Positions 1,261-58,600 of a DNA stretch of 63,033 bases are shown here, one piece after another (positions within the stretch are counted from its first letter, which is position 1; each line of letters opens with the position of its first letter). The DNA is from Nemertoderma westbladi (Eukaryota > Animalia > Xenacoelomorpha): NCBI GenBank assembly GCA_032718475.1, contig JAUCBJ010000595.1, positions 1 through 63,033 on the forward strand. The letters are read 5' to 3'. Both the position numbers and the translations under genes were made by a program. Under the pieces are notes generated by a model that searched no databases, was not told the origin of the DNA, and saw nothing but the letters and a program-made list of their open reading frames with translations.

Positions 1261-1370
1261 CAGCTATGAAACATCATCAGTGAGTTGGGGCATCATCCAG
1301 AGAATATTCCTAGCCTTCAAACTCCACCACAAAGTAAAATAAAACTCGAGTTATTAACGTTTAAAGAATC

Positions 1371-1640
1371 AGCTAATCAGAGGCCGTATCTGGTGACCAC
1401 AGTATGGTCGCGACCTGGGACCCAAACTGGAGCTTCAGAGTACCGTCCAAAACATTTTCGCATAAAATTGTACCGTAAAATATCAAGGCCTGGGCACATT
1501 TTCGACGTTTGAAAGTAAGAGCCAATCAGGTGCCAGATATGGTGACCACGGTCTTGTCTCGACCTGAGACCCAGACTGCAGCTTCAGATTACCGGCCAAA
1601 ACATATTCACATAATATTATATCAAAAAATGTTATTGCCT
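1371..1640. repeat. Diverged direct repeat, two ~120-bp copies 150 bp apart
   Basis: AGCTAATCAG..TGGTGACCAC..CGACCTGGGACCCAAACTGGAGCTTCAGA..CCAAAACAT at 1371 and its counterpart at 1521. Confidence 0.8.
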
Positions 1641-4090: not shown

Positions 4091-4611
4091 CTTATCATTC
4101 GTGAGTATTGGACCTACAAGTTATAAAATTAGAATATTCGTAAAATGCACACCGTACCCAGTAATTATATATGTGAAGGAGCAAAACTGCTTTGACTGTT
4201 TAGAATTAATACACACGCGTTAGAAATTATTTACACCTCAAAATATATAAAATTAACTTTCGTCCTTACTGTGCTTTGCCCGCTAGTTAGACATCTCCAA
4301 ATCTCTGCCTCTGTACCTAGCTAGCGTCCCTTTCGCCCAACCATATAAATCACACCGCGGCAAAGTATACGAGCCCCTTAGTCCGTCAGTGAGTCAGCCT
4401 GATTTTAGGATTCGCTGCGCGGGATTTTGTTTCATCGAAGTTTGTCTGCTCGTAGACTGTTTTCTGCCTCACCGGTTATAAGAGATCGATACTGCAATAT
4501 ATTCGCTTACTTAGAGTTTACTGTTTTGGTGAGAAGGTCGGATTTATGATTTGATTCACAAACTTTACGGTAAGATATTGCAGGTATTGTTACCGTCTCT
4601 TCGAATATAAG
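4091..4611 (+). mobile_element. LTR-like segment abutting the interrupted exon
   Basis: Purine tract AAGAGGGGAAGGAA (4076-4089), imperfect terminal inverted repeat CTTATCATTCG..CGAATATAAG, TATA-like CATATAAAT at ~4342. No canonical TG..CA ends and no partner LTR or RT ORF seen. Confidence 0.35.
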
Positions 4612-4658
4612 TATCTTCCAGGAAGTGGTTCAACCCAGCGTCTTGTGTGATTGATAGA
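4608..4658 (-). CDS. Start of DysF exon ([18 protein letters not shown]), apparently interrupted
   Basis: Last acceptor copy at 4659-4660, phase-compatible with both 80-nt exons. Ferlin similarity stops after EDTY and the frame runs IRRDGNNTCNILP-stop. Confidence 0.6.
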
Positions 4659-7600
4659 CTAAAAGAAACACCAAACTAACTATTATATACAGGAAGTGGT
4701 TCAACCCAGCGTCTTGTGTGATTGATAGACTAAAAGAAACACCAAACTAACTATTATATACAGGAAGTGGTTCAACCCAGCGTCTTGTGTGATTGATAGA
4801 CTAAAAGAAACATCAAACTAACTATTATATTATCGTAAGTATCTTCCAGGAAGTGGTTCAACCCAGCGTCTTGTGTGATTGATAGACTAAAAGAATCACC
4901 AAACTAACTATTATATACAGGAAGTGGTTTAACCCAGCGTCTTGTGTGATTGATAGACTAAAAGAAACACCAAACTAACTATTATATACAGGAAGTGGTT
5001 CAACCCAGCGTCTTGTGTGATTGATAGACTAAAAGAAACATCAAACTAACTATTATATTATCGTAAGTATCTTCCAGGAAGTGGTTCAACCCAGCGTCTT
5101 GTGTGATTGATAGACTAAAAGAAACATCAAACTAATTATTATATTATCGTAAGTATCTTCCAGGAAGTGGTTCAACCCAGCGTCTTGTGTGATTGATAGA
5201 CTAAAAGAAACACCAAACTAACTATTATATTATCGTAAGTATCTTCCAGGAAGTGGTTCAACCCAGCGTCTTGTGTGATTGATAGACTAAAAGAAACACC
5301 AAACTAACTATTATATACAGGAAGTGGTTCAACCCAGCGTCTTGTGTGATTGATAGACTAAAAGAAACACCAAACTAACTATTATATACAGGAAGTGGTT
5401 CAACCCAGCGTCTTGTGTGATTGATAGACTAAAAGAAACATCAAACTAACTATTATATCATAGTAACAAGAATATCAATGTATTACATATTAAATTCTGG
5501 AATATAGTATTTGTGCTCTTATAAAAAAACTCGTGCTCCAATCCTTTTATAACATAAAAGGTAACCTTTTATAACCTGCGTTCTAGAATATAATACCTAG
5601 GATGCAAAATACATTACCTGCGTTCTAGAATATATTACCTGCGTTCTAGAATATATTACCTGCGTTCTAGAATATATTACCTGCGTTCTAGAATATATTA
5701 CCTGCGTTCTAGAATATATTACCTGCGTTCTTGAATATATTACCTGCGTTCTAGAATATATTACCTGCGTTCTATAATATATCACCAGCGTTCTAGAATA
5801 TATTACCTGCATTCTTGAATATATTACCTACGATATAGAATATATTACCTGCGTTCTATAATATATTACCTGCGTTCTAGAATATATTACCTGCGTTCTA
5901 GAATATATTACCTGCGATATAGAATATATTACCTGCGTTCTATAATATATTACCTGCGTTCTATAATATATTACCTGCGTTCTAGAATATATTACCTGCG
6001 TTCTAGAATATAATACCTGCGTTCTAGAATATATTACCTGCGTTCTAGAATATATTACCTGCGTTCTTCAATATATTACCTGCGTTCTAGAATATATTAC
6101 CTGCGTTCTAGAATATATTACCTGCGTTCTAGAATATATTACCTGCGTTCTAGAATATATTACCTGCGTTCTAGAATATATTATCTGCGTTCTAGAATAT
6201 ATTACCTGCGTTCTAGAATATATTACCTGCGTTCTTCAATATATTACCTGCGTTCTAGAATATATTACCTGCGTTCTAGAATATATTACCTGCGTTCTAG
6301 AATATATTACCTGCGTTCTAGAATATATTACCTGCGTTCTAGAATATATTACCTGCGTTCTAGAATATATTACCTGCGTTCTAGAATATATTACCTGCGT
6401 TCTAGAATATATTACCTGCGTTCTTCAATATATTACCTGCGTTCTTGAATATATTACCTGCGTTCTAGAATATATTACCTGCGTTCTATAATATATTACC
6501 TGCCTTTCTAGAATATATTACCTGCGTTCTAGAAGATATTACCTGCGTTCTAGAATATATTATCTGCGTTCTAGAATATATTACCTGCGTTCTAGAATAT
6601 ATTACCTGCGATATAGAATATATTACCTGCGTTCTAGAATATATTACCTGCGTTCTAGAATATATTACCTGCGTTCTTGAATATATTACCTGCGATATAG
6701 AATATATTACCTGCGTTCTAGAATATATTACCTGCGTTCTAGAATATATTACCTGCGTTCTAGAATATATTACCTGCGTTCTAGAATATATTACCTGCGT
6801 TCTAGAATATATTACCTGCGTTCTTGAATATATTACCTGCGTTCTATAATATATTACCTGCGTTCTAGAATATATTACCTGCGTTCTTGAATATATTACC
6901 TGCGTTCTAGAACATATTACCTGCATTCTATAATATATCACCAGCGTTCTAGAATATATTACCTGCGTTCTAGAATATATTACCTGCGTTCTAGAATATA
7001 TTACCTGCGTTCTATAATATATTACCTGCGTTCTATAATATATTACCTGCGTTCTAGAAGATATTACCTGCGTTCTAGAATATATTACCTGCGTTCTAGA
7101 ATATATTACCTGCGTTCTATAATATATTACCTGCGTTCTAGAAGATATTACCTGCATTCTAGAATATATTACCTGCGTTCTAGAATATATTACCTGCGTT
7201 CTATAATATATTACCTGGGTTCTAGAATATATTACCTGCGTTCTAGAATATATTACCTGCGTTCTAGAATATATTACCTGCGTTCTAGAATAGATTACCT
7301 GCGTTCTAGAATATATTACCTGTGTTCTAAAATATATTACATGTGTTCTAGAATATATTACCTGCGTTCTAGAATATATTACCTGCGTTCTAGAATATAT
7401 TACCTGCGTTCTAGAATATATTACCTGCGTTCTAGAATATATTACATGTGTTCTAGAATATATTACATGTGTTCTAGAATATATTACCTGCGTTCTAGAA
7501 TATATTACCTGCGTTCTAGAATATATTACCTGCGTTCTAGAATATATTACCTGCGTTCTAGAATATATTACCTGCGTTCTGGAGCAACAAGCCAATCGCT

Positions 7601-10600
7601 TTCCCAGTCCCACCCGCTTGGGGGTCGAAAATCTTCCCGCTTTATTTTAATCTACAAATAACATAACAGACAGACAGACATATAGAGATCATGCATTCTC
7701 TACTGGATATAAAAAACCGCAACGTGTTGTAGGAAAAATCACCGCAGAGATTAAAGAAATTAATAACCAAAGTGTTTACAGTGGCAGTAACCCGCTACCT
7801 AACTAACTACACAGCTGCATTGCTCATAAACTAGCTACCTAACTAACTACACAGCTGCATTGCTCATAAACTAGCTACCTAACTAACTACACAGCTGCAT
7901 TGCTCATAAACTAGCTACCTAACTAACTACACAGCTGCATTGCTCATAAACTAGCTACCTAACTATCTGTCCAGCTGCATTGCTCATAAACTAGCTACCT
8001 AACTAACTACACAGCTCCATTGCTCATAAACTAGCTACCTAACCATCTGTCCAGCTGCATTGCTCCTAAACCAGCTACCTAACTATCTGTCCAGCTGCAT
8101 TGCTTATAAACCAGCTACGTAACTATCTGTCCAGCTGCATTGCTCATAAACCAGCTACCTAACTTACTACACAGCTGCATTGCTCATAAACCAGCTACCT
8201 AACTAACTACACAGCTGCATTGCTCCTAAACCAGCTACCTAACTAACTACACAGCTACATTGCTCCTAAACCAGATACCTAACTAACTAAACAGCTGCAT
8301 TGCTCCTAAACCAGCTACCTAACTAACTAGACAACTGCATAGCTCATAAAACCGCTACCTAACTATCTGTCCAGCTACATTGCTCATAAACAAGCTACCT
8401 AACTATCTGTTCAGCTGCATTGCTCATAAACCAGCTACCTAACTATCTGCCCAGCTGCATTGCTCATAAACCAGCTACCTAACTATCTGCCCAGCTGCAT
8501 TGCTCATAAACCAGCTAACTAACTATCTGCCCAGCTGCATTGCTCATAAACAAGCTACCTAACTATATGTCCAGCTGCATTGCTCATAAACCAGCTACCT
8601 AACTAACTACACAGCTGTATTGCTCATAAACCAGCTACCTAACTAACTACACAGCTGCATTGCTCATAAACCAGCTACCTAACTATCTGCCCAGCTGCAT
8701 TGCTCATAAACCAGCTACCTAACTATATGTCCAGCTGCATTGCTCATGAACCAGCTACCTAACTATCTGCCCAGCTGCATTGCTTATAAACCAGCTACCT
8801 AACTATCTGCCCAGCTGCATTGCTTATAAACCAGCTACCTAACTAACTGCACAGCTGCATTGTTCATTTGCAGCTGGTTGTATTTCACATACAATATTGC
8901 AATAAAACGTGTTTCAAAACAAAAAATAAAAGTTCATGCAAAGTGTGGGATATTTATAGTGAAATAGGAAATAAATTATTACCAAAACCACCAAAGGTTG
9001 TATACATTTACAGTTGCTAGGTAACAACATTGTTTACTAATGTTACCTGAGTTCGGGACTTATAAACCAGTCTACCTCCCACTCCCAACCCTTAGGGTTT
9101 CTAAAACTCTCCTTCGGGGTGGCCAGCTAAGAATAACAATAATTCTAATATATAAAAAATTGGCATTAAATCCTAAAAACATAGACTCTTAGACATATAG
9201 CAAATATATTTTGAGATAAACACTTTTGTATTATATGTTAATAAATATACTGTGTCTGGGCATAGCACTGAAATGAAACTGAAAGTAATTGATAGATTAC
9301 ATACCTGTCCGCTGGAATCCGAGAACTTTGGTTTTGTCATTCCTTTGTTGGTCCACCCCGCGACGGGGACGTTAATCATATTCTCGTAACATTCGGCGAA
9401 CACGGAAATCTCGCCGGTACTCTGTGCGTTCTGCCATTCAGTTTGGTGTTGTTCTAATCCGAGCCAAATCTAAAGGGAAAATACCCCTTCTATTATATTG
9501 ACTAGGCCTCTAGTGCAAGTCAATTAATAAATTATAGAGTCTTTGTAATATAAGCTACAGAAAAAGGGAAGGTTGGATGCGATTACCGAACCAGAGGCTA
9601 TATCATATGGGAAAGGAGCAACAGTGATTGCGTTTCTAACAAAAATAAACAAATTTATCTTTTCTAATTTTTGAACACTCCCTCCTTTGCGCTATTTTAG
9701 CGATCCCCCGCCCCCACATTATTGAAATACCTTATGTTACATATGCGTAAACACATTCTATACCATAGTTACATATATTAATGTTTTCAAGAGCATAGAA
9801 TATAATCTACATACGGTATTCATACATAAATGCGTTCTAGAACATTCTTACCTTCATTCGAATCATCGCCGGTATTTTATGCGCCTTGTCTCCAGTTTCA
9901 CCAGCGGCCCCGGGGTACTAAAAAAAAATATAACAATTAATTGTTATTAATTCTAAATAAGTCTAAAGTAATAGTTTACAAATTGTATTAAAGCGTGAGC
10001 GGATGTATAACGCACATTTCGATAACAATTCCTCCGAATAAGTGTTCCAAAAATATTTGGAGGTTAATGTTTCTCATTTATAAGAATAAAAAACAACTAT
10101 AAAACCCACCTTTAGGAATATCGTCTGAGTTTTACCGCAATTCTTCCCGGACGCCCCTTTCACCTCGGAGTATAAGACATCGTAGGCCGGTATTCTGTAG
10201 TACGCTATCCGTTTATTCCCGCTTATCATCCACAGAATTACGTCCGGCATGCTGTTCTGGGGCTAAAATTAGATTAAAATTTAATTATAATAAATCAGTA
10301 AATTATGTAATTTTAGTAAATATTACGGGAACTATCCCATAAAGTTGTGAGAACTATTGTCAATCAGCACTGATACATTGTCAATCATAAACAACATTGT
10401 TTATAATACATAAACAAATTGTTCCAGAACATCGTGTATTTATTAAATAGAATAAATGGCCTGCAGTGAAGAATAATTCTTGCAATCTTTGAATGCCTAT
10501 ATCTCAGCTGTTTCTCAACGAAATTCAGTTATTGTTACATATTTCGAATTCTTGCTACGCAAGCTTTTTAATGATATGAAAAAGTTACGACTAAAGTGAA

Positions 10601-13600
10601 GAATGGCAATGATACGGAGGGTGCGATTTCGCAAAAGACACTTTTTTAAAACGCTTATAAAAAAATTCCGGCTTCATGGGGTCATCGACGGTGAGTGGAA
10701 CTAGTGGTGTTTCATATTTCAAGCAATATGATAAACATTTGTAGAAAAATCTGGGGGGGGGGGGGGTGGGTGTCCGTGTCATCAGAAAATGACACTATAT
10801 TACGGGACATGGTGTACTGTAGATATTTATCTTAAAAGAAGAGAAAACACAAAGTAACCATGGTAACATAGTAAACAAACCTCGAATGCGATGTCCAATA
10901 GATCGTTCTGCATTCCCTCGATGTCGTTGATAGCGTCACGGATATCAGTGGCGTTCTCCCGGAGATTGGCGGCGTTAGTGGCCACATTGCGGATGGTGGT
11001 TACCCGGTGTTTACTCAGGTGCATATCCAGTTGAGTACCGGAAGCTTTACGTGGGTCCATTTCCGGTAGAGGGTCGCTGAAACATTGTAAATATACCGGA
11101 CGTAATGAAAAATGAAAAAATGAAATGGAAGAGTTCAATTAATTTAAATGTGGGATAATTAAATAGAAAACAAATCGAACAACAATAACTCGCCATCCTC
11201 GCATGCCTTATGCAATATATGGAAATTGTTGAACTATAACTCGCCACTCGCCACGCATTTATGCGTGTGATATTTTTATAAAATGCTTACCAACAACGGC
11301 ATCGGCATGCGATAATGCGTGCGTTATGGACTATATAAATTGCTCACCAGGTCAACAATTCGTCATGCATTTACGAGTGCGATATGGAATATAAAATACT
11401 CACCAATAACAATATAACAATAGCAATATTTAATATATAAATTGCTTAACAACATGTCGTCATGCATTAATGTGGTTGTGTACTATTGAACTATATGAAC
11501 TATTGAAATTGCTCAACAATAACTCGGCATGCATTAATGTGGTTGTATACTATTGAACTATATGAACTATTGAAATTGCTCAACAATAACTCGGCATGCA
11601 TTAATGTGGTTGTATACTATTGAACTATATGAACTATTGAAATTGCTCAACAATAACTCGTCATGCATTAATGTGGTTGTATACTATTGAACTATATGAA
11701 CTATTGAACTATATGTACTATTGAACTATATGAACTATTGAAATTGCTCAACAATAACTCGTCATGCATTAATGTGGTTGTGTATTATTGAACTATATGA
11801 ACTATTGAAATTGCTCAACAATAACTCGTCATGCATTAATGTGGTTGTGTACTATTGAACCATATAAACTATTGAAATTGCTCAACAATAACTCGGCATG
11901 CATTAATGTGGTTGTATACTATTGAACTATATGAACTATTGAAATTGCTCAACAATAACTCGTCATGCATTAATGTGGTTGTGTACTATTGAACTATATG
12001 AACTATTGAAATTGCTCAACAATAACTCGGCATGCATTAATGTGGTTGTATACTATTGAACTATATGAACTATTGAAATTGCTCAACAATAACTCGTCAT
12101 GCATTAATGTGGTTGTGTACTATTGAACCATATAAACTATTGAAATTGCTCAACAATAAATCGTCATGCATTAATGTGGTTGTGTACTATTGAACTATAT
12201 GAACTATTGAACTATATGTACTATTGAACTATATGTACTATTGAAATTGCTCAACAATAACTCGTCATGCATTAATGTGGTTGTATACTATTGAACTATA
12301 TGAACTATTGAAATTGCTCAACAATAACTCGGCATGCATTAATGTGGTTGTATACTATTGAACTATATGAACTATTGAAATTGCTCAACAATAACTCGTC
12401 ATGCATTAATGTGGTTGTGTACTATTGAACTATATGAACTATTGAACTATATGTACTATTGAACTATATGAACTATTGAAATTGCTCAACAATAACTCGT
12501 CATGCATTAATGTGGTTGTGTACTATTGAACTATATGAACTATTGAACTATATGTACTATTGAACTATATGAACTATTGAAATTGCTCAACAATAACTCG
12601 TCATGCATTAATGTGGTTGTGTACTATTGAACTATATGAACTATTGAAATTGCTCAACAATAACTCGGCATGCATTAATGTGGTTGTATACTATTGAACT
12701 ATATGAACTATTGAAATTGCTCAACAATAACTCGTCATGCATTAATGTGGTTGTGTACTATTGAACCATATAAACTATTGAAATTGCTCAACAATAACTC
12801 GTCATGCATTAATGTGGTTGTGTACTATTGAACTATATGAACTATTGAACTATATGTACTATTGAACTATATGTACTATTGAAATTGCTCAACAATAACT
12901 CGTCATGCATTAATGTGGTTGTATACTATTGAACTATATGAACTATTGAAATTGCTCAACAATAACTCGGCATGCATTAATGTGGTTGTATACTATTGAA
13001 CTATATGAACTATTGAAATTGCTCAACAATAACTCGTCATGCATTAATGTGGTTGTGTACTATTGAACTATATGAACTATTGAACTATATGTACTATTGA
13101 ACTATATGAACTATTGAAATTGCTCAACAATAACTCGTCATGCATTAATGTGGTTGTGTACTATTGAACTATATGAACTATTGAACTATATGAACTATTG
13201 AACTATATGTACTATTGAACTATATGAACTATTGAAATTGCTAACAATAACTCGTCATGCATTAATGTGGTTGTGAACTATTGAACTATATGAACTATTG
13301 AAATTGCTCAACAATAACTCGTCATGCATTAATGTGGTTGTGTACTATTGAACTATATGAACTATTGAAATTGCTCAACAATAACTCGTCATGCATTAAT
13401 GTGGTTGTGTACTATTGAACTATATGAACTATTGAACTATATGTACTATTGAACTATATGAACTATTGAAATTGCTCAACAATAACTCGTCATGCATTAA
13501 TGTGGTTGTGTACTATTGAACTATATGAACTATTGAACTATATGTACTATTGAACTATATGAACTATTGAAATTGCTCAACAATAACTCGTCATGCATTA

Positions 13601-16600
13601 ATGTGGTTGTGTACTATTGAACTATATGAACTATTGAAATTGCTCAACAATAACTCGCCATGCATTAATGTGGTTGTGTACTATTGAACTATATGAACTA
13701 TTGAAATTGCTCAACAATTTTCGTCATACATTAATGTGGTTGTGTACTATTGAACTATATGAACTATTGAAATTACTCAACAATAACTCGTCATGCATTA
13801 ATGTGGTTGTGTACTATTGAACTATATGAACTATTGAACTATATGTACTATTGAACTATATGAACTATTGAAATTGCACAACAATAACTCGTCATGCATT
13901 AATGTGGTTGTGTACTATTGAACTATATGAACTATTGAAATTGCTCAACAATAACTCGCCATGCATTAATGTGGTTGTGTACTATTGAACTATATGAACT
14001 ATTGAAATTACTCAACAATAACTCGTCATGCATTAATGTGGTTGTGTACTATTGAACTATATGAACTATTGAAATTGCTCAACAATAACTCGTCATGCAT
14101 TAATGTGGTTGTGTACTATTGAACTATATGAACTATTGAAATTGCTCAACAATAACTCGTCATGCATTAATGTGGTTGTGTACTATTGAACTATATGAAC
14201 TATTGAACTATATGTACTATTGAACTATATGAACTATTGAAATTGCTCAACAATAACTCGTCATGCATTAATGTGGTTGTATACTATTGAACTATATGAA
14301 CTATTGAAATTGCTCAACAATAACTCGGCATGCATTAATGTGGTTGTATACTATTGAACTATATGAACTATTGAAATTGCTCAACAATAACTCGTCATGC
14401 ATTAATGTGGTTGTATACTATTGAACTATATGAACTATTGAACTATATGTACTATTGAACTATATGAACTATTGAAATTGCTCAACAATAACTCGTCATG
14501 CATTAATGTGGTTGTGTACTATTGAACTATATGAACTATTGAACTATATGTACTATTGAACTATATGAACTATTGAAATTGCTCAACAATAACTCGTCAT
14601 GCATTAATGTGGTTGTGAACTATTGAACTATATGAACTATTGAAATTGCTCAACAATAACTCGTCATGCATTAATGTGGTTGTGAACTATTGAACTATAT
14701 GAACTATTGAAATTGCTCAACAATAACTCGTCATGCATTAATGTGGTTGTGTACTATTGAACTATATGAACTATTGAAATTGCTCAACAATAACTCGTCA
14801 TGCATTAATGTGGTTGTGTACTATTGAACTATATGAACTATTGAACTATATGTACTATTGAACTATATGAACTATTGAAATTGCTCAACAATAACTCGTC
14901 ATGCATTAATGTGGTTGTGTACTATTGAACTATATGAACTATTGAAATTGCTCAACAATAACTCGCCATGCATTAATGTGGTTGTGTACTATTGAACTAT
15001 ATGAACTATTGAAATTGCTCAACAATTTTCGTCATACATTAATGTGGTTGTGTACTATTGAACTATATGAACTATTGAAATTACTCAACAATAACTCGTC
15101 ATGCATTAATGTGGTTGTGTACTATTGAACTATATGAACTATTGAACTATATGTACTATTGAACTATATGAACTATTGAAATTGCACAACAATAACTCGT
15201 CATGCATTAATGTGGTTGTGTACTATTGAACTATATGAACTATTGAACTATATGTACTATTGAACTATATGTACTATTGAACTATATGAACTATTGAAAT
15301 TGCACAACAATAACTCGTCATGCATTAATGTGGTTGTGTACTATTGAACTATATGAACTATTGAAATTGCTCAACAATAACTCGCCATGCATTAATGTGG
15401 TTGTGAACTATTGAACTATATGAACTATTGAAATTGCTCAACAATAACTCGTCATGCATTAATGTGGTTGTGAACTATTGAACTATATGAACTATTGAAA
15501 TTGCTCAACAATAACTCGTCATGCATTAATGTGGTTGTGTACTATTGAACTATATGAACTATTGAAATTGCTCAACAATAACTCGCCATGCATTAATGTG
15601 GTTGTGTACTATTGAACTATATGAACTATTGAAATTGCTCAACAATTTTCGTCATACATTAATGTGGTTGTGTACTATTGAACTATATGAACTATTGAAA
15701 TTACTCAACAATAACTCGTCATGCATTAATGTGGTTGTGTACTATTGAACTATATGAACTATTGAACTATATGTACTATTGAACTATATGAACTATTGAA
15801 ATTGCACAACAATAACTCGTCATGCATTAATGTGGTTGTGTACTATTGAACTATATGAACTATTGAAATTACTCAACAATAACTCGTCATGCATTAATGT
15901 GGTTGTGTACTATTGAACTATATGAACTATTGAAATTGCTCAACAATAACTCGTCATGCATTAATGTGGTTGTGTACTATTGAACTAAATGAATTATTGA
16001 AATTGCTCAACAATAACTCGTCATGCATTAATGTGGTTGTGTACTATTGAACTAAATGAAATATTGAAATTGCTCAACAATAACTCGTCATGCATTAATG
16101 TGGTTGTGTACTATTGAACTATATGAACTATTGAAATTGCTCAACAATAACTCGTCATGCATTAATGTGGTTGTGTACTATTGAACTAAATGAATTATTG
16201 AAATTGCTCAACAATAACTCGTCATGCATTAATGTGGTTGTGTACTATTGAACTATATGAACTATTGAAATTGCTCAACAATAACTCGTCATGCATTAAT
16301 GTGGTTGTGTACTATTGAACTAAATGAATTATTGAAATTGCTCAACAATAACTCGTCATGCATTAATGTGGTTGGGTACTATTGAACTAAATGAAATATT
16401 GAAATTGCTCAACAATAACTCGTCATGCATTAATGTGGTTGTGTACTATTGAACTATATGAACTATTGAAATTGCTCAACAATAACTCGTCATGCATTAA
16501 TGTGGTTGTGTACTATTGAACTAAATGAATTATTGAAATTGCTCAACAATAACTCGTCATGCATTAATGTGGTTGTGTACTATTGAACTAAATGAATTAT

Positions 16601-46600: not shown

Positions 46601-49600
46601 AAAACAATCAGTTAGAATAATCACAGTAATTTATCACTAAATTGAGACAAGAATAGCCAACATGCAGCAGTCACTGGTATATGGTGAAATTATGGGCGAA
46701 AAGGGTTGATAACCTTCACCATGCTGACACCGGAATATGGTAAAACCAAGCGCAAAATATGTAGGCTGATAACATACACCAAAACATATTGGATGCAGGG
46801 AAAAGAACAAGTAGTGCGATTTGAAAAAACATAATTATATAATTATATACGAAACGTTCCGGATCGAAATAATTATGTTTTTTCAAGTCGCACTACTTGT
46901 TTTTTTCTGTTTTAAATTACGATATCCTCCTGGGATCACCATAACTTCGATATTGGATGCAGTCACCGGAATATAGTAAAAATGATGGGCGAAAAATGTT
47001 GATAACCTTCACCATGCAGTCACCAGAATATTGTGAAATTATGGGCGAAAAGGGGATAACCTTCACCATGCAGTCACCGGAATATGGTAAAAATGATGGG
47101 CGAAAAATGTTGATAACCTTCACCATGCAGTCACCAGAATATTGTGAAATTATGGGCGAAAAGGGGATAACCTTCACCATGCAGTCACCAGAATATTGTG
47201 AAATTATGGGCGAAAAGGGGATAACCTTCACCATGCAGTCACCGGAATATTGTGAAATTATGGGCGAAAAGGGGATAACCTTCACCATGCAGTCACCAGA
47301 ATATTGTGAAATTATGGGCGAAAAGGGGATAACCTTCACCATGCAGTCACCAGAATATGTCAGTTGTTTCTCAGCTATTATTGGACTGCCGACACCCGCC
47401 GACTCACTTTTCCCATATTTAGATCGTCAAACTGATCTGGGAGATCTGAATACTCCCTGGTGGATCCGTACATGTTCATATAACAGGGTCCGAAGGTAGG
47501 GAGGAATCCATCGTCCCCAGGTACCGATATCGAGGACAGATGGATGAAACATGTCCCTATTGTATCGTCCTTGGACATTTGGTCCCTATAGTGACATAAA
47601 CATCAAATCATTGGATATAGCTGTTTCCTAGCAACTCTAATAACAATATCCAATTTTCACAGAAGAAAACGTTTCAGACGATGTTTATATATTTCAATTA
47701 TGCTGATAAAACAAACCGTAAATATGTATTCCAAAAGTGTCGACATTGTCAGTGGCACTCACAATAAAATGAATTAATAAAACTTGTGTTTAACACCCTT
47801 TGATTAACTTTAACATGATTAACAATACTACTACTACTACTATCGGCATGCTGCATTGCAGCTGCATTATATAGATTACGTAAACATTAAGAATGCTGTG
47901 ACGGAGAGTCGATAAAATCGCGCCGACACAACTCTATCACCCATGACATTTGCTAGATCATCCGCATCATCAAGTTCAGTGTCCTTTAAGATACGTCTCA
48001 AGAAAGTCATGGGCTGTCCACCATGCTTATTCACTCCATGAGGCTGCCAAAGTACAAGATTATGCACTGGCTGGTCCTCACAGCGAAAGCAATGTCCTGC
48101 AAAGCGGGGGCGGATCTCTTCAAGTGTCAAGCTAGATGAGACGAATGAAACACGTAAGGTTGTATAGAGTTTGATTGGATATGTATTCATTGTACTTGAC
48201 ACAATGAACCCGGAGTAGTAATCTTGTGAAAGTGGCATCCAGAGATTTGGTATACTCTGCGCAGTTAGAGCCCAGCATGGACTCCCATATAAGAGTAATG
48301 GGTCTACTACAAGCAGATTAAACCCCTAGAATAATAAAAATTATCGACCCGGGCCGAAAATATACGAGACGGTTGATTGGTGAAGTCCGGGGTGGTCATA
48401 ACGGACGGACCGTGTTACCTTGCAGATGATGTGAATACTCTGGGTATATCGGAGCGAATTTAATCAAAATATCAAGAAACCACGTGAACGTTTGGGTCTA
48501 ACCCGAGCAATATTTACAACCATAAAAGTTGATTAAATCAAATTACAGTTGGTAACAGCAACAGAGGCCTAATCATAGACCTCTATAAGCAAACAATAGT
48601 TGTTAGTAAATAAGCGACATAAATGATCAACCCCAGAATGTAAATATTTCCAGATTAACTTTTATCCGGGTACCTTTCCTTTGTTCATGTTGTCGAACTC
48701 TTTACTATCCCCCTGCTCCCTGGGGGATCCGTAGAGGTTTACGAAGCAGGGCCCGTACGTCGGGGTGTACCCTTCTGTCTCATCGGTACTCGAGACTTGA
48801 GAGATATATATAGTGGCCGTCGCTACGGTATCATCACGACCTGCTCTGTCCCTATAACAATGCGTTTAATGCTCAAAGTAACTTACCGGTAATTTGATAA
48901 TTAATCAATCTGTTAAGACTATGTATTATTATTAATTACAATAATTCGTTTTAATTATTCAACCTAGCCGCCTAAGAGGATATGAAACCCTATTTTTTTT
49001 TATTTAGTGTGTACTGTAGGCCTTTGTCCGCGATCTTATTTATACATTTAGATAATGAACATGCCCTCACACTCAATAGGAGTCAGCGAATATGTACACT
49101 ACAATCAAAAACGAGGATGTCCTTTTATAAGGGCGCTGTCGATATTTGGGTTTTTACTAAAATATAGTTTATTGAAAATAAATTAGCTAAAGATTGAATG
49201 CTGAACTAACCAGTCCAATACACTGAGTTTAATCCTGTCGCACATGGACGGGAACTTTAACCCTAATCGCAGCTCTTGGCTCCATTCCGGCGTGTAACTC
49301 GACGTTATAACTTTCGTCTTGGCTTTTTTTCCCGCGAAATGGAATACCATATATGGATCTACAAGGTCTTTATTATCCTCTCCTACCCCGAGTATCTTCT
49401 TAACGCCTTGGAACGTACCGGTGTCCACTGCGAAAGGAACAACAACGGGTTTCAGTGCCAGAAAATATTAAATATGTCTCCAACTACAGTATCATGGATA
49501 TGATCTCCTAACTTTACATAGTACTAATAACTCTATAGCCGACAATTAAATTTATCTCTTGAGTCAGATAACTAACTCTAGTCAGTACACTAACACTAGC

Positions 49601-52600
49601 CAGTACACTAACTATAGCCAGTACACTAACTCTAGCCAGTACACTAACTCTAGACAGTACACTAACTCTAGTCAGAACACTAACTCTAGTCAGTACACTA
49701 ACACTAGCCAGTACACTAACTATAGCCAGTACACTAACTCTAGCCAGTACACTAACTCTAGACAGTACACTAACTCTAGTCAGAACACTAACTCTAGTCA
49801 GTACACTAACTCTAGTCAGTACACTAACTCTAGCCAGTACACTAACTCTAGTCAGTACACTAACTCTAGTCAGTACACTAACTCAAGTCAGTACACTAAC
49901 TCTAGCCAGTACACTAACTCTAGTCAGTACACTAACTCTAGCCAGTACACTAACTCAAGTCAGTACACTAACTCTAGTCAGTACACTAACTATAGCCAGT
50001 ACACTAACTCTAGCCAGTACACTAACTCTAGACAGTACACTAACTCTAGTCAGAACACTAACTCTAGTCAGTACACTAACTCTAGTCAGTACACTAACTC
50101 TAGCCAGTACACTAACTCTAGTCAGTGCACTAACTCTAGTCAGTACACTAACTCAAGTCAGTACACTAACTCTAGCCAGTACACCAACTCTAGTCAGTAC
50201 ACTAACTCTAGCCAGTACACTAACTCAAGTCAGTACACTAACTCTAGTCAGTACACTAACTCTAGCCAGTACACTAACTTTAGTCAGTACACTAACTCTA
50301 GTCAGTACACTAACTCCCGAAGTACACTAACTCTAGTCAGTACACTAACTCTAGCCAGTACACTAACTCTAGTCAGTACAATAACTATAGCCAGTACACT
50401 AACTCTAGTCAGTACACTAACTCTAGTCAGTACACGAACTATAGCCAGTACACTAACTCTAGTACACTAATTCTAGCCAGTACACTAACTCTAGTCAGTA
50501 CACTAACTCTAGCCAGTACACTAACTCTAGTCAGTACAATAACTATAGCCAGTACACTAACTCTAGCCAGTAGACTAACTCTAGTCAGTACACTAACTAT
50601 GGCCAGTACACTAACTCTAGTCAGTACACTAACTATAGCCAGTACACTAACTCTAGTACACTAATTCTAGCCAGTACACTAACTCTAGTCAGTACACTAA
50701 CTCTAGCCAGTACACTAACTCTAGCCAGTACACTAATTCTAGTCAGTACACTAACTCTAGTCAGTACACTAACTCTTGCTAGTACACTAACTCTAGCCAG
50801 TACACTAACTCTAGCCAGTACACTAACTCTAGTCAGTACACTAACTCTAGTCAGTACACTAACTCTAGTCAGTACACTAACTCTAGTCAGTACACTAACT
50901 CTAGTCAGTACACTAACTCTAGCCGGTACACTAACTCTAGCCAGTACACTAACTCTAGTCAGTACACTAACTCTAGTCAGTACACTAACTCTAGCCGGTA
51001 CACCAACTCTAGCCAGTACACTAACTCTAGCCGGTACACTAACTCTAGTCAGTACACTAACTCTAGCCAGTACACTAACTCTAGTCAGTACACTAACTCT
51101 AGTCAGTACACTAACTCTAGTCAGTACACTAACTCTAGTCAGTACACTAACTCTAGTCAGTACACTAACTCTAGCCGGTACTCTAACTCTAGCCAGTACA
51201 CTAACTCTAGTCAGTACACTAACTCTAGCCAGTACACTAACTCTAGCCGGTACACTAACTCTAGCCAGTACACTAACTCTAGTCAGTACACTAACGCTAG
51301 CCAGTACACTAACTCTAGTCAGTACACTAACTCTAGTCAGTACACTAACTCTAGTCAGTACACTAACTCTAGCCGGTACACTAACTCCAGTCAGTACACT
51401 AACTCTAGCCGGTACTCTAACTCTAGTCAGTACACTAACTCTAGTCAGTACACTAACTCTAGTCAGTACACTAACTCTAGTCAGTACACTAACTCTAGTC
51501 AGAACACTAACTCTAGCCAGTACACTAACTCTAGTCAGTACACTAACTCTAGTCAGTACACTAACTCTAGCCAGTACACTAACTCTAGCCAGTACACTAA
51601 CTCTAGCTAGTACACTAACTCTAGCCAGTACACTAACTCTAGCCAGTACACTAACTCCAGTCAGTACACTAACTCTAGCCGGTACACTAACTCTAGTCAG
51701 TACACTAACTCTAGTCAGTACACTAACTCTAGTCAGTACACTAACTCTAGTCAGTACACTAACTCTAGTCAGAACACTAACTCTAGCCAGTACATTAACT
51801 CTAGTCAGTACACTAACTCTAGTCAGTACACTAACTCTAGCCAGTACACTAACTCCAGTCAGTACACCAACTCTAGTCAGTACACTAACTCTAGCCGGTA
51901 CACTAACTCTAGCCAGTACACTAACTCTAGTCAGTACACTAACTCTAGTCAGTACACTAACTCTAGCCGGTACACTAACTCTAGCCAGTACACTAACTCT
52001 AGTCAGTACACTAACTCTAGTCAGTACACTAACTCTAGCCAGTACACTAACTCTAGTCAGTACACTAACTCGAGCCAGTACACTAACTCTAGTCAGTACA
52101 CTAACTCTAGTCAGTACACTAACTCTAGCCGGTACACTAACTCTAGCCAGTACACTAACTCTAGTCAGTACACTAACTCTAGTCAGTACACTAACTCTAG
52201 CCAGTACACTAACTCTAGTCAGTACACTAACTCTAGCCAGTACACTAACTCTAGTCAGTACACTAACTCTAGCCGGTACACTAACTCTAGCCAGTACACT
52301 AACTGTAGCCGGTACACTAACTCTAGTCAGTACACTAACTCTAGTCAGTACACTAACTCTAGCCAGTACACTAACTCTAGTCAGTACACTAACTCTAGTC
52401 AGTACACTAACTCTAGTCAGTACACTAACTCAAGTCAGTACACTAACTCTAGTCAGTACACTAACTCTAGTCAGAACACTAACTCTAGCCAGTACACTAA
52501 CTCTAGTCAGTACACTAACTCTAGTCAGTACACTAACTCTAGCCAGTACACTAACTCCAGTCAGTACACCAACTCTAGTCAGTACACTAACTCTAGCCGG

Positions 52601-55600
52601 TACACTAACTCTAGCCAGTACACTAACTCTAGTCAGTACACTAACTCTAGTCAGTACACTAACTCTAGCCGGTACACTAACTCTAGCCAGTACACTAACT
52701 CTATTCAGTACACTAACTCTAGTCAGTACACTAACTCTAGCCAGTACACAAACTCTAGTCAGTACACTAACTCTAGCCAGTACACTAACTCTAGTCAGTA
52801 CACTAACTCTAGTCAGTACACTAACTCTAGCCGGTACACTAACTCTAGCCAGTACACTAACTCTAGTCAGTACACTAACTCTAGTCAGTACACTAACTCT
52901 AGCCAGTACACTAACTCTAGTCAGTACACTAACTCTAGCCAGTACACTAACTCTAGTCAGTACACTAACTCTAGCCGGTACACTAACTCTAGCCAGTACA
53001 CTAACTCTAGTCAGTACACTAACTCTAGCCGGTACACTAACTCTAGTCAGTACACTAACTCTAGTCAGTACACTAACTCTAGCCAGTACACTAACTCTAG
53101 TCAGTACACTAACTCTAGTCAGTACACTAACTCTAGTCAGTACACCAACTCTAGTCAGTAAAACTAACTCTAGCCAGTGCACTAACTCTAGTCAGTAGGC
53201 CTACACTAACTCTGAGGTATATCTTCCCCTCTGTAGGTTTTCAACCAGAATGTCGCCGGCTGTAACTGGGTTCCCGCCGGCGAGAGAAGATTCGACTCTA
53301 TATCGTCGTCTTCGTCGTCGCCGTCCTTATCCTGGGGGGCCTCGTCCCCGGGTCCAAGTACGATCGCCGTGAACTTAAGGTATCCCTTCACCCCTCCCAT
53401 CGGGTCGTCGGGGTCGGTAAGTAGAAGCCATCGGCGTAGAAACGCCCGTTTCGGTTCGTCGTAAATCATACCGACGTCCAACTTAAAGGAGCCGAGAAGC
53501 GAATCGGAACGGAGTTTACGGGAGTTAAACAGCTGGAAGTTGATGATGTCGTCGAAGAGTTCAGTGGGGAGTTTGTTAAAGTTGAAGAAAAATATCTAAA
53601 GATTAAAATAATTTCTGGTAAACAAAGCAGCGTGCGAATGAATATAGCAACTTTTTAATTGCGGAATTTAGAGCGAGACTTCCAATATTTACTTAGTCTA
53701 AACGTTCCACTCTATAGATCGTAACTTATCCATTATATAGTTGGCATACCTCGTTCCATATAGGCTGGGACGTTGACTTTTTCACTTTCGTTTGTTTATT
53801 TTCTTTCCCTATGTTTACTTTCACTACGGGACTGAGCTCCCCACCCGGCAGTTGACGTGCCTCGAAAATTTTAACTCGAACCTGAAATTAGATGAAATTA
53901 AATGAATTACCAAATCTGTAAATATAAATGATTTTAGAATTGTGGGGAATCACTCAGTTGGGAATCAGGTCAGTTGGGAATCACAATCACTCAGTTCCGC
54001 TTTATTTCTACCCCCTGGTAGTCCGTCGCTTTATCGGTTAGTGTCCGATTGCTTTCTACCCACCTAAAAGTCCGTCGGTTTCTCCGGTAGTTTTCCTCGC
54101 GTTTCCGTGCGGACTTCCCACCACCCTGGGTGCCATCCATCCCTCTACCAACCTGGAAGTCCGTCGGTTTCTCCGGTAGTTTGGCTCGCTCGCGTTTCCG
54201 TGCAGCCTTCCCACCACCCTGGGTGCCATCCATCCCTCTACCAACCTGGAAGTCTGTCGGTTTCTCCGGTAGTTTTGCTCGCTCGCGTTTCCGTGCGGCC
54301 TTCCCACCACCCTGGGTGCCATCCATCCCTCTACCAACCTGGAAGTCCGTCGGTTTCTCCGGTAGTTTGGCTCGCTCGCGTTTCCGTGCGGCCTTCCCAC
54401 CACCCAGGGTTCCATCCATCCCTCTACCAACCTGGAAGTCCGTCGGTTTCTCCGGTAGTTTGGCTCGCTCGCGTTTCCGTGCAGCCTTCCCACCACCCTG
54501 GGTGCCATCCATCCCTCTACCAACCTGGAAGTCTGTCGGTTTCTCCGGTAGTTTTGCTCGCTCGCGTTTCCGTGCGGCCTTCCCACCACCCTGGGTGCCA
54601 TCCATCCCTCTACCAACCTGGAAGTCCGTCGGTTTCTCCGGTAGTTTGGCTCGCTCGCGTTTCCGTGCGGCCTTCCCACCACCCTGGGTGCCATCCATCC
54701 CTCTACCAACCTGGAAGTCCGTCGGTTTCTCCGGTAGTTTGGCTCGCTCGCGTTTCCGTGCGGCCTTCCCACCACCCTGGGTTCCATCCATCCCTCTACC
54801 AACCTGGAAATCCGTCGGTTTCTCCGGTAGTTTGGCTCGCTCGCGTTTCCGTGCTGCCTTCCCACCACCCTGGGTTCCATCCATCCCTCTACCAACCTGG
54901 AGGTCTGTCGGTTCTCCGGTAGTTTGGCTCGCTCGCGTTTCCGTGCAGCCTTCCCACCACCCTGGGTTCTATCCATCCCACTACCAACCTGGAAGTCCGT
55001 CGGTTCCTCCGGCAGTTTTGCTCGCTCGCGTTTCCATGCGGCCTTCCCACCACCCTGGGTGCCATCCATCCCTCTACCAACCTGGAAATCCGTCGGTTCC
55101 TCCGGTAGTTTTGCTCGCTCGCGTTTCCGTGCAGCCTTCCCACCACCCTGGGTTCTATCCATCCCACTACCAACCTGGAAGTCCGTCGGTTCCTCCGGCA
55201 GTTTTGCTCGCTCGCGTTTCCGTGCGGCCTTCCCACCACCCTGGGTGCCATCCATCCCTCTACCAACCTGGAAATCCGTCGGTTCCTCCGGTAGTTTTGC
55301 TCGCTCGCGTTTCCGTGCAGCCTTCCCACCACCCTGGGTGCCATCCATCCCTCTACCCACCTGGAAATCCGTCGGTTTCTCCGGTAGTTTTGCTCGCTCG
55401 CGTTTCCGTGCAGCCTTCCCACCACCCAGGGTTCCATCCATCCCACTACCAACCTGGAAGTCCGTCGGTTTCTCCGGTAGTTTTCCTCGCGTTTCCGTGC
55501 GGACTTCCCACCACCTTGGGTGCCATCCATCCCTCTACCCACCTGGAAATCCGTCGGTTTCTCCGGTAGTTTGGCTCGCTCGCGTTTCCGTGCAGCCTTC

Positions 55601-58600
55601 CCACCACCCTGGGTTCCATCCATCCCACTACCAACCTGGAAGTCCGTCGGTTTCTCCGGTAGTTTGGCTCGCTCGCGTTTCCGTGCAGCCTTCCCACCAC
55701 CTTGGGTTCCATCCATTCCTCTACCCACCTGGAAATCCGTCGGTTTCTCCGGTAGTTTGGCTCGCTCGCGTTTCCGTGCAGCCTTCCCACCACCTTGGGT
55801 GCCATCCATCCCTCTACCCACCTGGAAATCCGTCGGTTTCTCCGGTAGTTTGGCTCGCTCGCGTTTCCGTGCGGCCTTCCCACCACCCTGGGTGCCATCC
55901 ATCCCTCTACCAACCTGGAAGTCCGTCGGTTTCTCCGGTAGTTTGGCTCGCTCGCGTTTCCGTGCGGCCTTCCCACCACCCTGGGTTCCATCCATCCCTC
56001 TACCAACCTGGAAATCCGTCGGTTTCTCCGGTAGTTTGGCTCGCTCGCGTTTCCGTGCTGCCTTCCCACCACCCTGGGTTCCATCCATCCCTCTACCCAC
56101 CTGGAAATCCGTCGGTTTCTCCGGTAGTTTGGCTCGCTCGCGTTTCCGTGCAGCCTTCCCACCACCTTGGGTGCCATCCATCCCTCTACCCACCTGGAAA
56201 TCCGTCGGTTTCTCCGGTAGTTTGGCTCGCTCGCGTTTCCGTGCAGCCTTACCACCACCTTGGGTGCCATCCATCCCTCTACCCACCTGGAAATCCGTCG
56301 GTTTCTCCGGTAGTTTGGCTCGCTCGCGTTTCCGTGCAGCCTTCCCACCACCTTGGGTGCCATCCATCCCACTACCAACCTGGAAGTCCGTCGGTTTCTC
56401 CGGTAGTTTGGCTCGCTCGCGTTTCCGTGCAGCCTTCCCACCACCCAGGGTTCCATCCATCCCAGTACCAACCTGGAAGTCCGTCGGTTTCTCCGGTAGT
56501 TTGGCTCGCTCGCGTTTCCGTGCAGCCTTCCCACCACCCAGGGTTCCATCCATCCCACTACCAACCTGGAAGTCCGTCGGTTTCTCAGGTAGTTTGGCTC
56601 GCTCGCGTTTCCGTGCAGCCTTCCCACCACCCAGGGTTCCATCCATCCCAGTACCAACCTGGAAGTCCGTCGGTTTCTCCGGTAGTTTGGCTCGCTCGCG
56701 TTTCCGTGCAGCCTTCCCACCACCCAGGGTTCCATCCATCCCACTACCAACCTGGAAGTCCGTCGGTTTCTCCGGTAGTTTGGCTCGCTCGCGTTTCCGT
56801 GCAGCCTTCCCACCACCCAGGGTTCCATCCATCCCAGTACCAACCTGGAAGTCCGTCGGTTTCTCCGGTAGTTTGGCTCGCTCGCGTTTCCGTGCAGCCT
56901 TCCCACCACCCAGGGTTCCATCCATCCCAGTACCAACCTGGAAGTCCGTCGGTTTCTCCGGTAGTTTGGCTCGCTCGCGTTTCCGTGCAGCCTTCCCACC
57001 ACCCAGGGTTCCATCCATCCCAGTACCAACCTGGAAGTCCGTCGGTTTCTCCGGTAGTTTGGCTCGCTCGCGTTTCCGTGCAGCCTTCCCACCACCCAGG
57101 GTTCCATCCATCCCACTACCAACCTGGAAGTCCGTCGGTTTCTCCGGTAGTTTGGCTCGCTCGCGTTTCCGTGCAGCCTTCCCACCACCCAGGGTTCCAT
57201 CCATCCCAGTACCAACCTGGAAGTCCGTCGGTTTCTCCGGTAGTTTGGCTCGCTCGCGTTTCCGTGCAGCCTTCCCACCACCCAGGGTTCCATCCATCCC
57301 AGTACCAACCTGGAAGTCCGTCGGTTTCTCCGGTAGTTTGGCTCGCTCGCGTTTCCGTGCAGCCTTCCCACCACCCAGGGTTCCATCCATCCCACTACCA
57401 ACCTGGAAGTCCGTCGGTTTCTCCGGTAGTTTGGCTCGCTCGCGTTTCCGTGCGGCCTTCCCACCACCCTGGGTTCCTTCCATCCCACCGATTCCTTCAT
57501 CTCTGTCCTTCTCTGGTCCACCTTCTTCACCCAACTCTGGTGCATCGGCCTCATCTAAACAATAAACGAATACGATACGATCCGCACATCCTAATTTTAC
57601 TCAATCTCTTAAATAATTCAAAATTGAAAAAAAAAGCAAAAAAATATATCGGTGTATATATCGACAATGGGTTGGAAAAAATTAACATTACAGTGTATAT
57701 AAATAAAATGTCTCATGCTATTATTTCCCAATCACGACAGATTGACCATTAAAGCAAAATTTATCTTCTAAAAACAACATTACCTTATCATAACTACTTT
57801 GGCGAGTTACTACTACTGTAGTAAGTTTTCACAAAATGCATCCCTCTCCAAGGGAAAATCAAAGCAAATAAAATTTTATTACTACTTACTACTGTATTGA
57901 AAGACCCTGATAACCTCGAAAAATGCAGGCTCAAGGATTGTCTCACACCAAAAATATCTACTGGTACTCAATTAATTGCGCACACTGTCTAAATCACAAA
58001 CTTTATAATATGCTCTCAGGGTAAATAAAATACGCAACGCAATTTTTCAACCAATAGCTTCCGTAACCGCAGTTAATTAATCACATTATTATTTAGTTCA
58101 TGGGCCAGCCGGCATCATATGGGATACTTTTTGGTAACCTAACCACCTGGTACTGATGACACGCCGTAAACACACATGGCACGTATTTGTTTTGTGTTAA
58201 AGTAAAATTTTAGCTGTGCACGTTAGACTTGTCTACGTGAGAGAGTCGGATGTTTAAGCAACAGTAATAGGTACTGTAGATCAAAGTGTTCCTGAACATT
58301 GGCGACAATCATCTGTTGCGATGGAAACAGCGCTCCCTACCTGTGCGTGCAGCCTCCGAAATTGACTTGGGTGTTTCATACAATAAAACAATTACAATTA
58401 CACCATGTCCCGAAAAATAGTGTCTTCAAATATATTCTATGAATTTTTTACATAATCGTCTCCAGCAAAATTAGGTTAGGTGTGGCTTAAATGAAAATTG
58501 TCATAAAATTTGACCATAAAATGAGGATTCCGATGATGTAAGCTTAATTGTAATGGAAACTTTATGTACAAATTGTTTATTTTCAACAGTAAATTTATTA

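What the first reader, a model, noticed from the sequence alone, without database searches (positions are those of the whole stretch)
4611..57488. Five independent tandem arrays are amplifications of the gene's own splice junctions
Seen: four unrelated arrays start exactly at a ferlin 5' splice site and repeat exon-end plus donor (93 bp x~37 CAG|GTTGGT, 18 bp x~200 AGA|GTTAGT, 34 bp x17 CAG|GTGAGT, 21 bp x~95 CAG|GTAATA). A fifth repeats acceptor plus exon-start (71/86 bp x11). That gives roughly 350 decoy donors and 10 decoy acceptors in one half-gene. Known: single splice-boundary VNTRs exist in human CBS and ABCA7, and tandem duplication of splice signals is a proposed intron-gain route. 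Inference: five cases in one gene point to a lineage-wide process that seeds repeats at exon-intron borders, or to selection for donor arrays as U1-binding splicing modulators.
Basis: partly seen in the sequence, partly recalled or inferred. Interest (0 to 1): 0.88.

Follow-up and report, generated by a model that had tools for sequence, protein, structure and literature searches.

The report
Splice-junction mirage repeats in ferlin gene
Five borders between coding and non-coding parts of an invertebrate membrane-repair (ferlin) gene have been copied head-to-tail 11 to about 200 times, a repeat type already named "mirage" in lancelets; four are likely harmless passengers, but one stays in reading frame and is likely partly translated.

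Summary
The five arrays are real and sit where stated in a minus-strand myoferlin/dysferlin-like gene: 292 exact (344 near-exact) extra donors and 10 extra acceptors. Short-read contigs support three of them. This is a known kind: lancelet "mirages" and human F7, CBS and ABCA7 VNTRs. The scan found it before on other DNA.

Only 5 of 9 intragenic arrays touch a junction (1.2-2.4 expected, P 0.002-0.04, post hoc), and no genome was held for a wider test. Donor motifs are not better conserved than the rest of the units, so the U1-modulator idea is unsupported.

The unexpected part is the 93-bp array. Copies 2-21 are in frame and stop-free, and 9 of 12 variants are silent (P about 0.001; 18- and 21-bp controls show no bias). 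One cDNA-like contig splices to exon 4 beside an array-type unit. That array is likely partly translated, though import of silent variants from the exon is not excluded. A high-copy element cuts exon 19 in this haplotype.

The parts
57403..57554 (-). Exon 3 (linker ending at the start of C2B); its last ~84 nt seed the 93-bp unit; first donor after 57403
54055..57486 (-). 93-bp donor array, 37 donor-like sites; copies 2-21 in frame and stop-free, copies 22, 28, 37 carry indels; silent-biased variation
   Evidence: contigs
53750..53881 (-). Exon 4 (C2 domain); its acceptor is the one used by the spliced-type contig of run X4
53211..53595 (-). Exon 5 (FerI); its donor starts the 18-bp array
49562..53210 (-). 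18-bp donor array, ~200 copies, 3 exact exon nt per unit, in-frame stop at the second codon
   Evidence: contigs of X3
45955..46074 (-). Exon 9; last 9 nt are in the 34-bp unit
45393..45963 (-). 34-bp donor array, 16 extra exact donors; reading on shifts frame and stops after 23 codons
7572..7651 (-). Exon 18; last 9 nt are in the 21-bp unit
5570..7580 (-). 21-bp donor array, ~95 copies, in-frame stop at the second codon
4608..5458 (-). 71/86-bp acceptor array, 11 copies; every copy in this haplotype reaches a stop within 30-37 codons
   Evidence: tandem joint in runs X1 and X4
4608..4658 (-). Start of exon 19 (last acceptor copy), cut after 51 nt
3300..4607 (.). High-copy interspersed element ending at the cut; left end not mapped (3300 is only where the laid stretch began)
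   Evidence: summed depth ~1e5 against 50-550 on the array; loose ends at 4607
11439..42314 (.). 67-bp satellite, 31 kb, 75 nt from the exon 13 donor; not on a junction (control)
7789..8867 (.). 40-bp array, not on a junction (control)
44473..44860 (.). 39/40-bp array, 79 nt from a donor, not on a junction (control)
46957..47358 (.). 54-bp array, 49 nt from a donor, not on a junction (control)
4608..60174 (-). Host gene: 5' half of a myoferlin/dysferlin-like ferlin, 18 modelled exons plus the start of exon 19

Best explanation
Five tandem arrays in this ferlin gene are copies of its own exon-intron borders ('mirage' minisatellites) that likely began as ordinary local duplications in short introns of a repeat-prone genome and likely persist because splicing is predicted to keep using the site beside the real exon, except for the in-frame 93-bp array, whose inner donors are likely used part of the time. 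Steps: (1) shown: each unit copies sequence at one border and the five units are unrelated; (2) inferred: a slippage or unequal-exchange duplication that straddles a border leaves the exon intact, with extra donors downstream or extra acceptors upstream, so it is as survivable as an intronic one; (3) shown pattern, inferred cause: homogeneous centres and decayed far edges fit minisatellite turnover anchored at the exon; (4) inferred from F7, CBS and ABCA7: the first donor dominates, with leakage to later copies; (5) shown: leakage in the 18-, 21-, 34- and 71/86-bp arrays meets a stop within 1-37 codons, so such RNAs would be decay substrates (inferred), while leakage to 93-bp copies 2-21 adds 31 residues per copy in frame; (6) inferred: those longer proteins are made often enough for selection to remove amino-acid changes from the proximal copies.
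For: Array anatomy and counts. Unrelated units, 70% of the window in arrays, and four intragenic arrays off junctions. Collapsed introns 3, 5 and 18 are only 143-182 nt, which raises the chance of straddling a border. Decayed far-edge units in the 18-, 21- and 93-bp arrays. No extra conservation of donor motifs. Published first-site use with leakage to the next one or two copies (PMC1557585 abstract and Introduction; PMC5954066 passages). For the 93-bp clause: 9 of 12 distinct substitutions in copies 2-21 are silent against 26-30% expected (P 0.0005-0.002), 0 and 1 of 12 in the other two sense frames; 18- and 21-bp arrays show no bias in any of six frames; all 3 indel units and 6 of 9 amino-acid-changing variants are confined to copies 22-37. 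In run X4 one contig joins a 93-bp-type donor exactly to the exon 4 acceptor, and the only other X4 record laid is a 123-nt (93+30) piece whose 4 differences fit copies 3, 4, 6, 7, 8 or 12, not exon 3's end (14 differences), at similar depth, 32.4 against 30.7.
Against: 5 of 9 arrays on junctions exceeds even the host-intron null (P 0.018-0.039), and 4 of 5 off-junction repeats lie 21-79 nt from a donor, so blind placement may not be enough. First-site use was not observed for any array here. The X4 joint has only 30 letters on its short side (the tool asks for 31 to count a bridge), was laid at 80% likeness, and comes from one contig of a run listed as 'DNA?'. That contig keeps intron 4, which holds a stop, and reads into the 18-bp array, so it is not a finished mRNA. 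Its 30 upstream letters fit exon 3's own end equally well (51 nt shared). Full-length copies among 22-37, which are out of frame here, are also silent-biased (8 of 13, P 0.01), and the proximal-distal contrast is not significant (Fisher P 0.11). An unchecked scan note (e1-7142826) reports silent bias in an annelid donor array whose RNA keeps only the first copy.
Confidence: 0.58

Rival explanations
1. A mutational process is aimed at exon-intron borders in this lineage (for example repair or exchange that stalls where conserved exon meets divergent intron, or lesions tied to co-transcriptional splicing), so arrays are seeded at and just inside donors more often than elsewhere.
For: 5 of 9 arrays on junctions, P 0.002-0.04; 4 of 18 donors against 1 of 18 acceptors; off-junction repeats 21, 49, 75 and 79 nt from donors in 4 of 5 cases. 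Lancelet authors call mirages possibly general there, mechanism unclear. Unchecked scan note e1-9925714 reports clustering of long repeats at borders.
Against: One gene chosen for this pattern; the null treats present-day collapsed introns as ancestral, although inserted elements may have lengthened them later; no genome to test. Unchecked note e1-9960831 found about 2% of borders, modestly above chance, in another genome.
Confidence: 0.24
2. For the 93-bp array only: the copies are never usefully translated, and the silent bias is inherited from the real exon end, whose allelic variants are silent and enter the array by unequal exchange or conversion.
For: The bias sits in the exon-derived part (8 of 9 silent), not the intron-derived 9 nt (1 of 3). 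Out-of-frame distal copies share it. A similar case with first-donor RNA is in unchecked note e1-7142826.
Against: One exon copy among 37 should contribute few variants unless flow is strongly one-way, yet copies 2-12 differ from the exon at 3-4 of 84 nt. The three single-copy variants in copies 2-21 are all silent, against 1 of 4 in copies 22-37. The X4 records favour an array-type unit next to the joint.
Confidence: 0.35
3. The donor arrays are kept by selection as U1 snRNP-binding modulators of splicing or of premature polyadenylation.
For: 344 donor-like sites exist; GT is intact in all but 1 of 196, 2 of 92, 0 of 16 and 0 of 33 full-length units.
Against: The donor 9-mer varies as much as the rest of each unit (P 0.2-1.0; low power for the 34- and 93-bp arrays). 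The largest donor array repeats one of the gene's weakest donors, 5 of 9 consensus matches. Four arrays without a splice border expanded too, one to 31 kb.
Confidence: 0.05
4. The arrays are assembly artefacts.
Against: X3 has one 1038-nt contig from the 18-bp array through exons 5 and 4 into the 93-bp array, with strongly raised depth on both array edges. X1 and X4 hold the 86-bp tandem joint. Copies carry structured shared variants.
Confidence: 0.03

Closest known systems
Lancelet 'mirage' minisatellites (Adh3, globins BflGb6 and BflGb9, troponin C, PGBD5); PMC3087553 passages, PMC3902484 passage; the 2002 Adh paper PMC117041 was not held
   Same: Tandem units spanning a 5' or 3' exon-intron border, carrying GT or AG, units of 10-160 bp, homogenised centres with divergent edge units.
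   Different: Here five in one half-gene with up to ~200 copies (3-6 copies in BflGb6). Lancelet mirages are reported not to disturb splicing, whereas the 93-bp array here shows coding-type constraint and a hint of inner-donor use.
Human junction VNTRs F7 IVS7 (37 bp), CBS IVS13, 6-16, LMNB2, PDGF; PMC1557585 abstract and Introduction
   Same: First unit spans the donor, followed by identical pseudo-donors; the first site is used, with one or two further sites in CBS and 6-16.
   Different: One array per gene, 5-25 copies; no acceptor array described in the parts read.
Human ABCA7 intron 18 25-bp VNTR; PMC5954066 passages
   Same: Unit starts at the donor GT with little exon sequence, like the 18-bp array; retention of one unit shifts the frame.
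   Different: Length is tied to disease risk and measured splicing changes; nothing of that kind is shown here.
Variable internal tandem repeats at exon-intron borders in human segmental duplications; PMC2812944 passages. Intron creation by tandem duplication, PMC3265369 (search listing and start of abstract only)
   Same: Repeats may be kept in the exon as amino-acid repeats or spliced out, the two fates open to the 93-bp array.
   Different: Those are paralog comparisons with transcript support; no new intron is shown here.
Type 1 (DysF-containing) ferlins; PMC2923515 passages
   Same: C2-FerI-C2 core and FerB; 55% identity over 750 residues to Lingula P0002, into the region before its DysF.
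   Different: C-terminal half is outside the window or beyond the insertion; no C2A exon found (many invertebrate type 1 ferlins lack it).

Membership tests
Mirage minisatellite | Tandem unit spans an exon-intron border of the host gene | tested here: met
   Met for 93, 34, 21 and 71/86 bp; borderline for 18 bp with 3 exact exon nt
Mirage minisatellite | Copies keep GT or AG splice signals | tested here: met
   292 exact and 344 near-exact extra donors, 10 extra acceptors
Mirage minisatellite | Homogenised centre with divergent edge units | tested here: met
   Decayed far-edge units in the 93-, 18- and 21-bp arrays, blocks of shared variants in the 93-bp array; less clear for 34 bp
Mirage minisatellite | Copy number differs between haplotypes or cells | not testable with these tools
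   Only collapsed short-read contigs were available
Mirage minisatellite | Regular splicing is undisturbed (authentic site used) | tested here: inconclusive
   One partly spliced contig, pointing to an inner 93-bp donor but ambiguous; the other four arrays had no usable joint
Coding tandem repeat (93-bp array) | Units in frame with the exon and free of stops | tested here: met
   Copies 2-21 met; copies 22-37 not
Coding tandem repeat (93-bp array) | Excess of silent over amino-acid-changing variants | tested here: met
   9 of 12 in copies 2-21, 13 of 22 overall; controls flat
Coding tandem repeat (93-bp array) | Units present in mature mRNA or protein | tested here: inconclusive
   X4 contig is not mature; no protein record found, which is weak
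Selected U1-binding modulator | Donor motif better conserved than the rest of the unit | tested here: not met
   P 0.2-1.0 in four arrays
Selected U1-binding modulator | Array kept in orthologous introns, or changes splicing when removed | not testable with these tools
   Runs X6 and X7 of other organisms laid nothing; no genome held
Type 1 ferlin | C2-FerI-C2 motif and FerB | tested here: met
   Pfam C2, FerI, C2, FerB above cut-off in 4 of 9 pieces scanned
Type 1 ferlin | DysF domains and C-terminal membrane anchor | tested here: inconclusive
   Exons 17-19 align to DysF-bearing P0002 up to residue 934 but gave no Pfam hit as single exons; the rest is not in the window

The most novel reading that the evidence does not exclude
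A mirage caught turning into protein: the 93-bp donor array acts as a ladder of working in-frame donors that adds a variable number of 31-residue basic repeats ahead of the ferlin C2B domain, with purifying selection on the proximal copies and decay of the distal ones, in a genome whose repeat seeding is biased towards donors.
Probability: 0.3. Interest if true: 0.65.

Novelty: new member of a known kind. Interest (0 to 1): 0.4.

Why it matters
As a class this is known, so the value is as a test bed. One gene holds four donor arrays of different strength and frame plus one acceptor array, which allows first-site, last-site and decay-masked leakage models to be compared in one transcript. If the 93-bp array is translated it shows how a junction repeat can become a protein repeat without a new exon. 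If it is not, silent-biased variation in an untranslated array would show that exon alleles feed neighbouring repeats, a trap for anyone using dN/dS as proof of coding. My six searches for such work listed no genome-wide test of mirage enrichment; subscription journals are largely not covered.

Tried and rejected
Genome-wide enrichment: no genome is held, so not done. No RNA holder listed by the run search. Runs X6 and X7 (other organisms of one study) laid nothing at 80%; no conclusion drawn. X4 has no cover at 53880-54145, which only its joint bridges. Protein records holding exon 3 or the 93-bp unit: none among 1014 long and 7993 short candidates; lengths 496-1581 were not searched with that query; weak evidence. 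The profile search over representatives was never run. Downstream ferlin exons in 1-4700 and upstream C2A exons in 57601-63033: no tblastn hit below E 0.01. Terminal repeats of the inserted element within 1256-4700: none clear; element type left open. A single dispersed family behind the five arrays: rejected. CpG or transition bias as the cause of the silent excess: expected share stays 0.25-0.30. Silent-bias controls on the 54- and 39-bp arrays had too few variants (1 and 3). Summed contig depth was not used as copy number. Scan look-ups by place and by sequence gave nothing. PMC117041 and PMC1783408 were not held and are known to me only as citations. PMC10078293 passages did not bear on junction-spanning units. 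No supplements were read; those of PMC3087553 (mirage alignments) may bear on the edge-unit comparison.
Full report
Host gene. The window holds the 5' half of a ferlin on the minus strand. Exon 5 finds myoferlin/dysferlin-like proteins, best 64% (Lingula, an acoel) among 23 hits. An 18-exon model with GT-AG borders is open for 784 codons when candidate exon 2 and one of exons 7/8 are left out, and aligns to Lingula P0002 at 55% over 750 residues. Pfam C2, FerI, C2 and FerB pass their cut-offs in 4 of 9 pieces. The organism is an unnamed invertebrate (inference from these hits); no genome is held.

Observation. Tandem Repeats Finder gives all five arrays at the stated places. Extra donors number 292 exact and 344 within two mismatches; the acceptor occurs 11 times. 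Exon content per unit is about 84, 9, 9 and 40-55 nt for the 93-, 34-, 21- and 71/86-bp units, but 3 exact nt for the 18-bp unit. Only 2 of 45 array pairs share an 11-mer, so the origins look independent. Short-read contigs support three arrays: X3 has one 1038-nt contig linking the 18-bp and 93-bp edges, with raised depth on both, and X1 and X4 hold the 86-bp tandem joint. X1-X3 may be the window's source; X4 is another sample.

Is it more than chance? Arrays fill 70% of the window, and four intragenic arrays touch no junction. With arrays collapsed to one unit, 5 of 9 straddle a border against 1.2-1.4 expected gene-wide (P 0.002-0.005; 0.005-0.009 with the two-copy 56-bp repeat; 4 of 9, P 0.01, if 9 exon nt are required) and 2.1-2.4 given the host introns (P 0.018-0.039). 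Three host introns collapse to 143-182 nt. Four of five off-junction repeats lie 21-79 nt from a donor. This is a modest excess in a window chosen for the pattern, so it neither proves nor excludes a border-directed process.

What later copies would do. Reading past the first donor meets a stop after 1 codon (18 and 21 bp) or 23 codons (34 bp); every acceptor copy in this haplotype stops within 30-37 codons. By established knowledge such RNAs would be decay substrates. The donor 9-mer holds 15 of 25, 7 of 18, 0 of 7 and 1 of 18 distinct substitutions in full-length units, as expected from its length (P 0.2-1.0; 196 of 203, 92 of 95, 16 of 16 and 33 of 35 units used). Nothing here suggests selection for U1 binding.

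The 93-bp array differs. Copies 2-21 are in frame with exon 3 and stop-free; copies 22, 28 and 37 carry indels. Of 12 distinct substitutions in copies 2-21, 9 are silent in the exon frame (expected 26-30% under five mutation models, P 0.0005-0.002); the other sense frames give 0 and 1; over all 36 copies 13 of 22 are silent. The 18- and 21-bp arrays show no bias in any of six frames. Against a simple coding reading: full-length copies among 22-37 are also biased (8 of 13, P 0.01), the proximal-distal contrast is not significant (P 0.11), and the bias lies in the exon-derived part (8 of 9, against 1 of 3).

Transcript hint. Run X4 is listed as 'DNA?' but behaves as cDNA (my inference). One 789-nt contig skips exactly 53882-54152, a GT-AG interval ending at the exon 4 acceptor, and ends in a 22-letter loose end that I recall as a template-switch adapter. 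The only other X4 record laid is 123 nt, the size of a closed one-unit loop in a 31-mer graph; it spans the intron-derived part of a unit, and its four differences fit copies 3, 4, 6, 7, 8 or 12 rather than exon 3's end. Depths are alike (32.4 and 30.7) and no separate 18-bp array contigs were laid for X4, which argues against a general unspliced background. This favours splicing from an inner donor. It is weak: one contig, 30 letters on the short side (below the tool's 31), laid at 80%, intron 4 retained with a stop, intron 5 unspliced, and exon 3 shares its last 51 nt with these copies. An unchecked scan note describes a silent-biased donor array whose RNA keeps only the first copy (e1-7142826). 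I put partial translation at about 55%, import of silent exon variants at 35%, chance at 10%.

Why the gene is half. Positions 3300-4607 have summed depth near 1e5 in X1-X3 against 50-550 on the array, with many loose ends at 4607: a high-copy element ends exactly where the last acceptor copy breaks off. An X4 contig continues from that point into 255 other letters whose nearest 30 translate to a stretch with the R-x-P-G-G motif that follows this position in Lingula ferlin. So an uninterrupted exon 19 exists in another sample; this haplotype is either disrupted or continues beyond the element.

Mechanism. Best reading: local duplications arise freely in this genome; those straddling a border survive because the exon stays whole; turnover homogenises the centre while the far edge decays; the first donor likely dominates, with leakage, as in F7, CBS and 6-16 (PMC1557585 abstract and Introduction) and ABCA7 (PMC5954066 passages). 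Leakage would be hidden by decay in four arrays and exposed to selection in the in-frame one. The anatomy, frames and variant patterns are shown; origin, site choice and translation are inferred.

Comparison. The class is named 'mirage' in lancelets, at both 5' and 3' borders, with edge exclusion, proposed intron gain and an unclear mechanism (PMC3087553 passages; PMC3902484 passage). Repeats at borders that are either kept as amino-acid repeats or spliced out are described in human duplications (PMC2812944 passages). The scan lists 14 findings in at least 11 genomes for these words (8 shown) and 5 further multi-array cases; these are unchecked notes and not support. Searches listed no genome-wide test.

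Verdict. Real, dense and clean, but a new member of a known kind. The lineage-wide claim is untested and the U1-modulator claim unsupported. The in-frame 93-bp array is the part worth following. Interest 0.4; novel case probability 0.3, interest 0.65 if true.

Noticed in passing
window 48674-48851 and 47408-47585 (-): Two homologous 178-nt exons for the end of C2C; either alone keeps the frame, both together break it: likely mutually exclusive exons.
   Followed up: partly
window 60102-60174 and 58936-58985 (-): Two short exons, each with an ATG, a similar last three codons and a phase-1 donor: possibly duplicated alternative first exons of a ferlin lacking C2A.
   Followed up: no
window 3300-4607: Very high-copy element whose end coincides with the break in exon 19; another sample carries the uninterrupted exon. 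Type and left end unknown.
   Followed up: partly
window 11439-42314: 31-kb 67-bp satellite inside one intron, with 50-bp variant units and stretches recurring at an offset of about 6.26 kb (e.g. 22021 and 28282), a higher-order duplication.
   Followed up: no
window 9835, 58989, 60177, 60192 and the 21-bp unit: An 8-nt palindrome resembling a heat-shock element core (recalled label) occurs 4 times outside arrays against 0.64 expected, next to exons 1, 2 and 16, and is the centre of the 21-bp unit.
   Followed up: partly
window 47921-48325 (-): 135-codon open frame between the duplicated exons that looks like the C-terminal end of a LINE protein (recalled resemblance); no Pfam hit.
   Followed up: partly
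window 53596-53749: Intron 4 (154 nt) is retained in the only spliced-type contig of run X4.
   Followed up: no
window 542-1255 and 1360-1640: A 50-bp array of 14 copies, and a 132-nt two-copy repeat at 77% identity, left of the insertion; the 50-bp array shares 4 11-mers with the 67-bp region.
   Followed up: no
window 55454-55542 and 54064-54152: Copies 22 and 37 of the 93-bp array share the same 4-nt deletion and a substitution, so a block including an edge-type unit was likely duplicated.
   Followed up: partly
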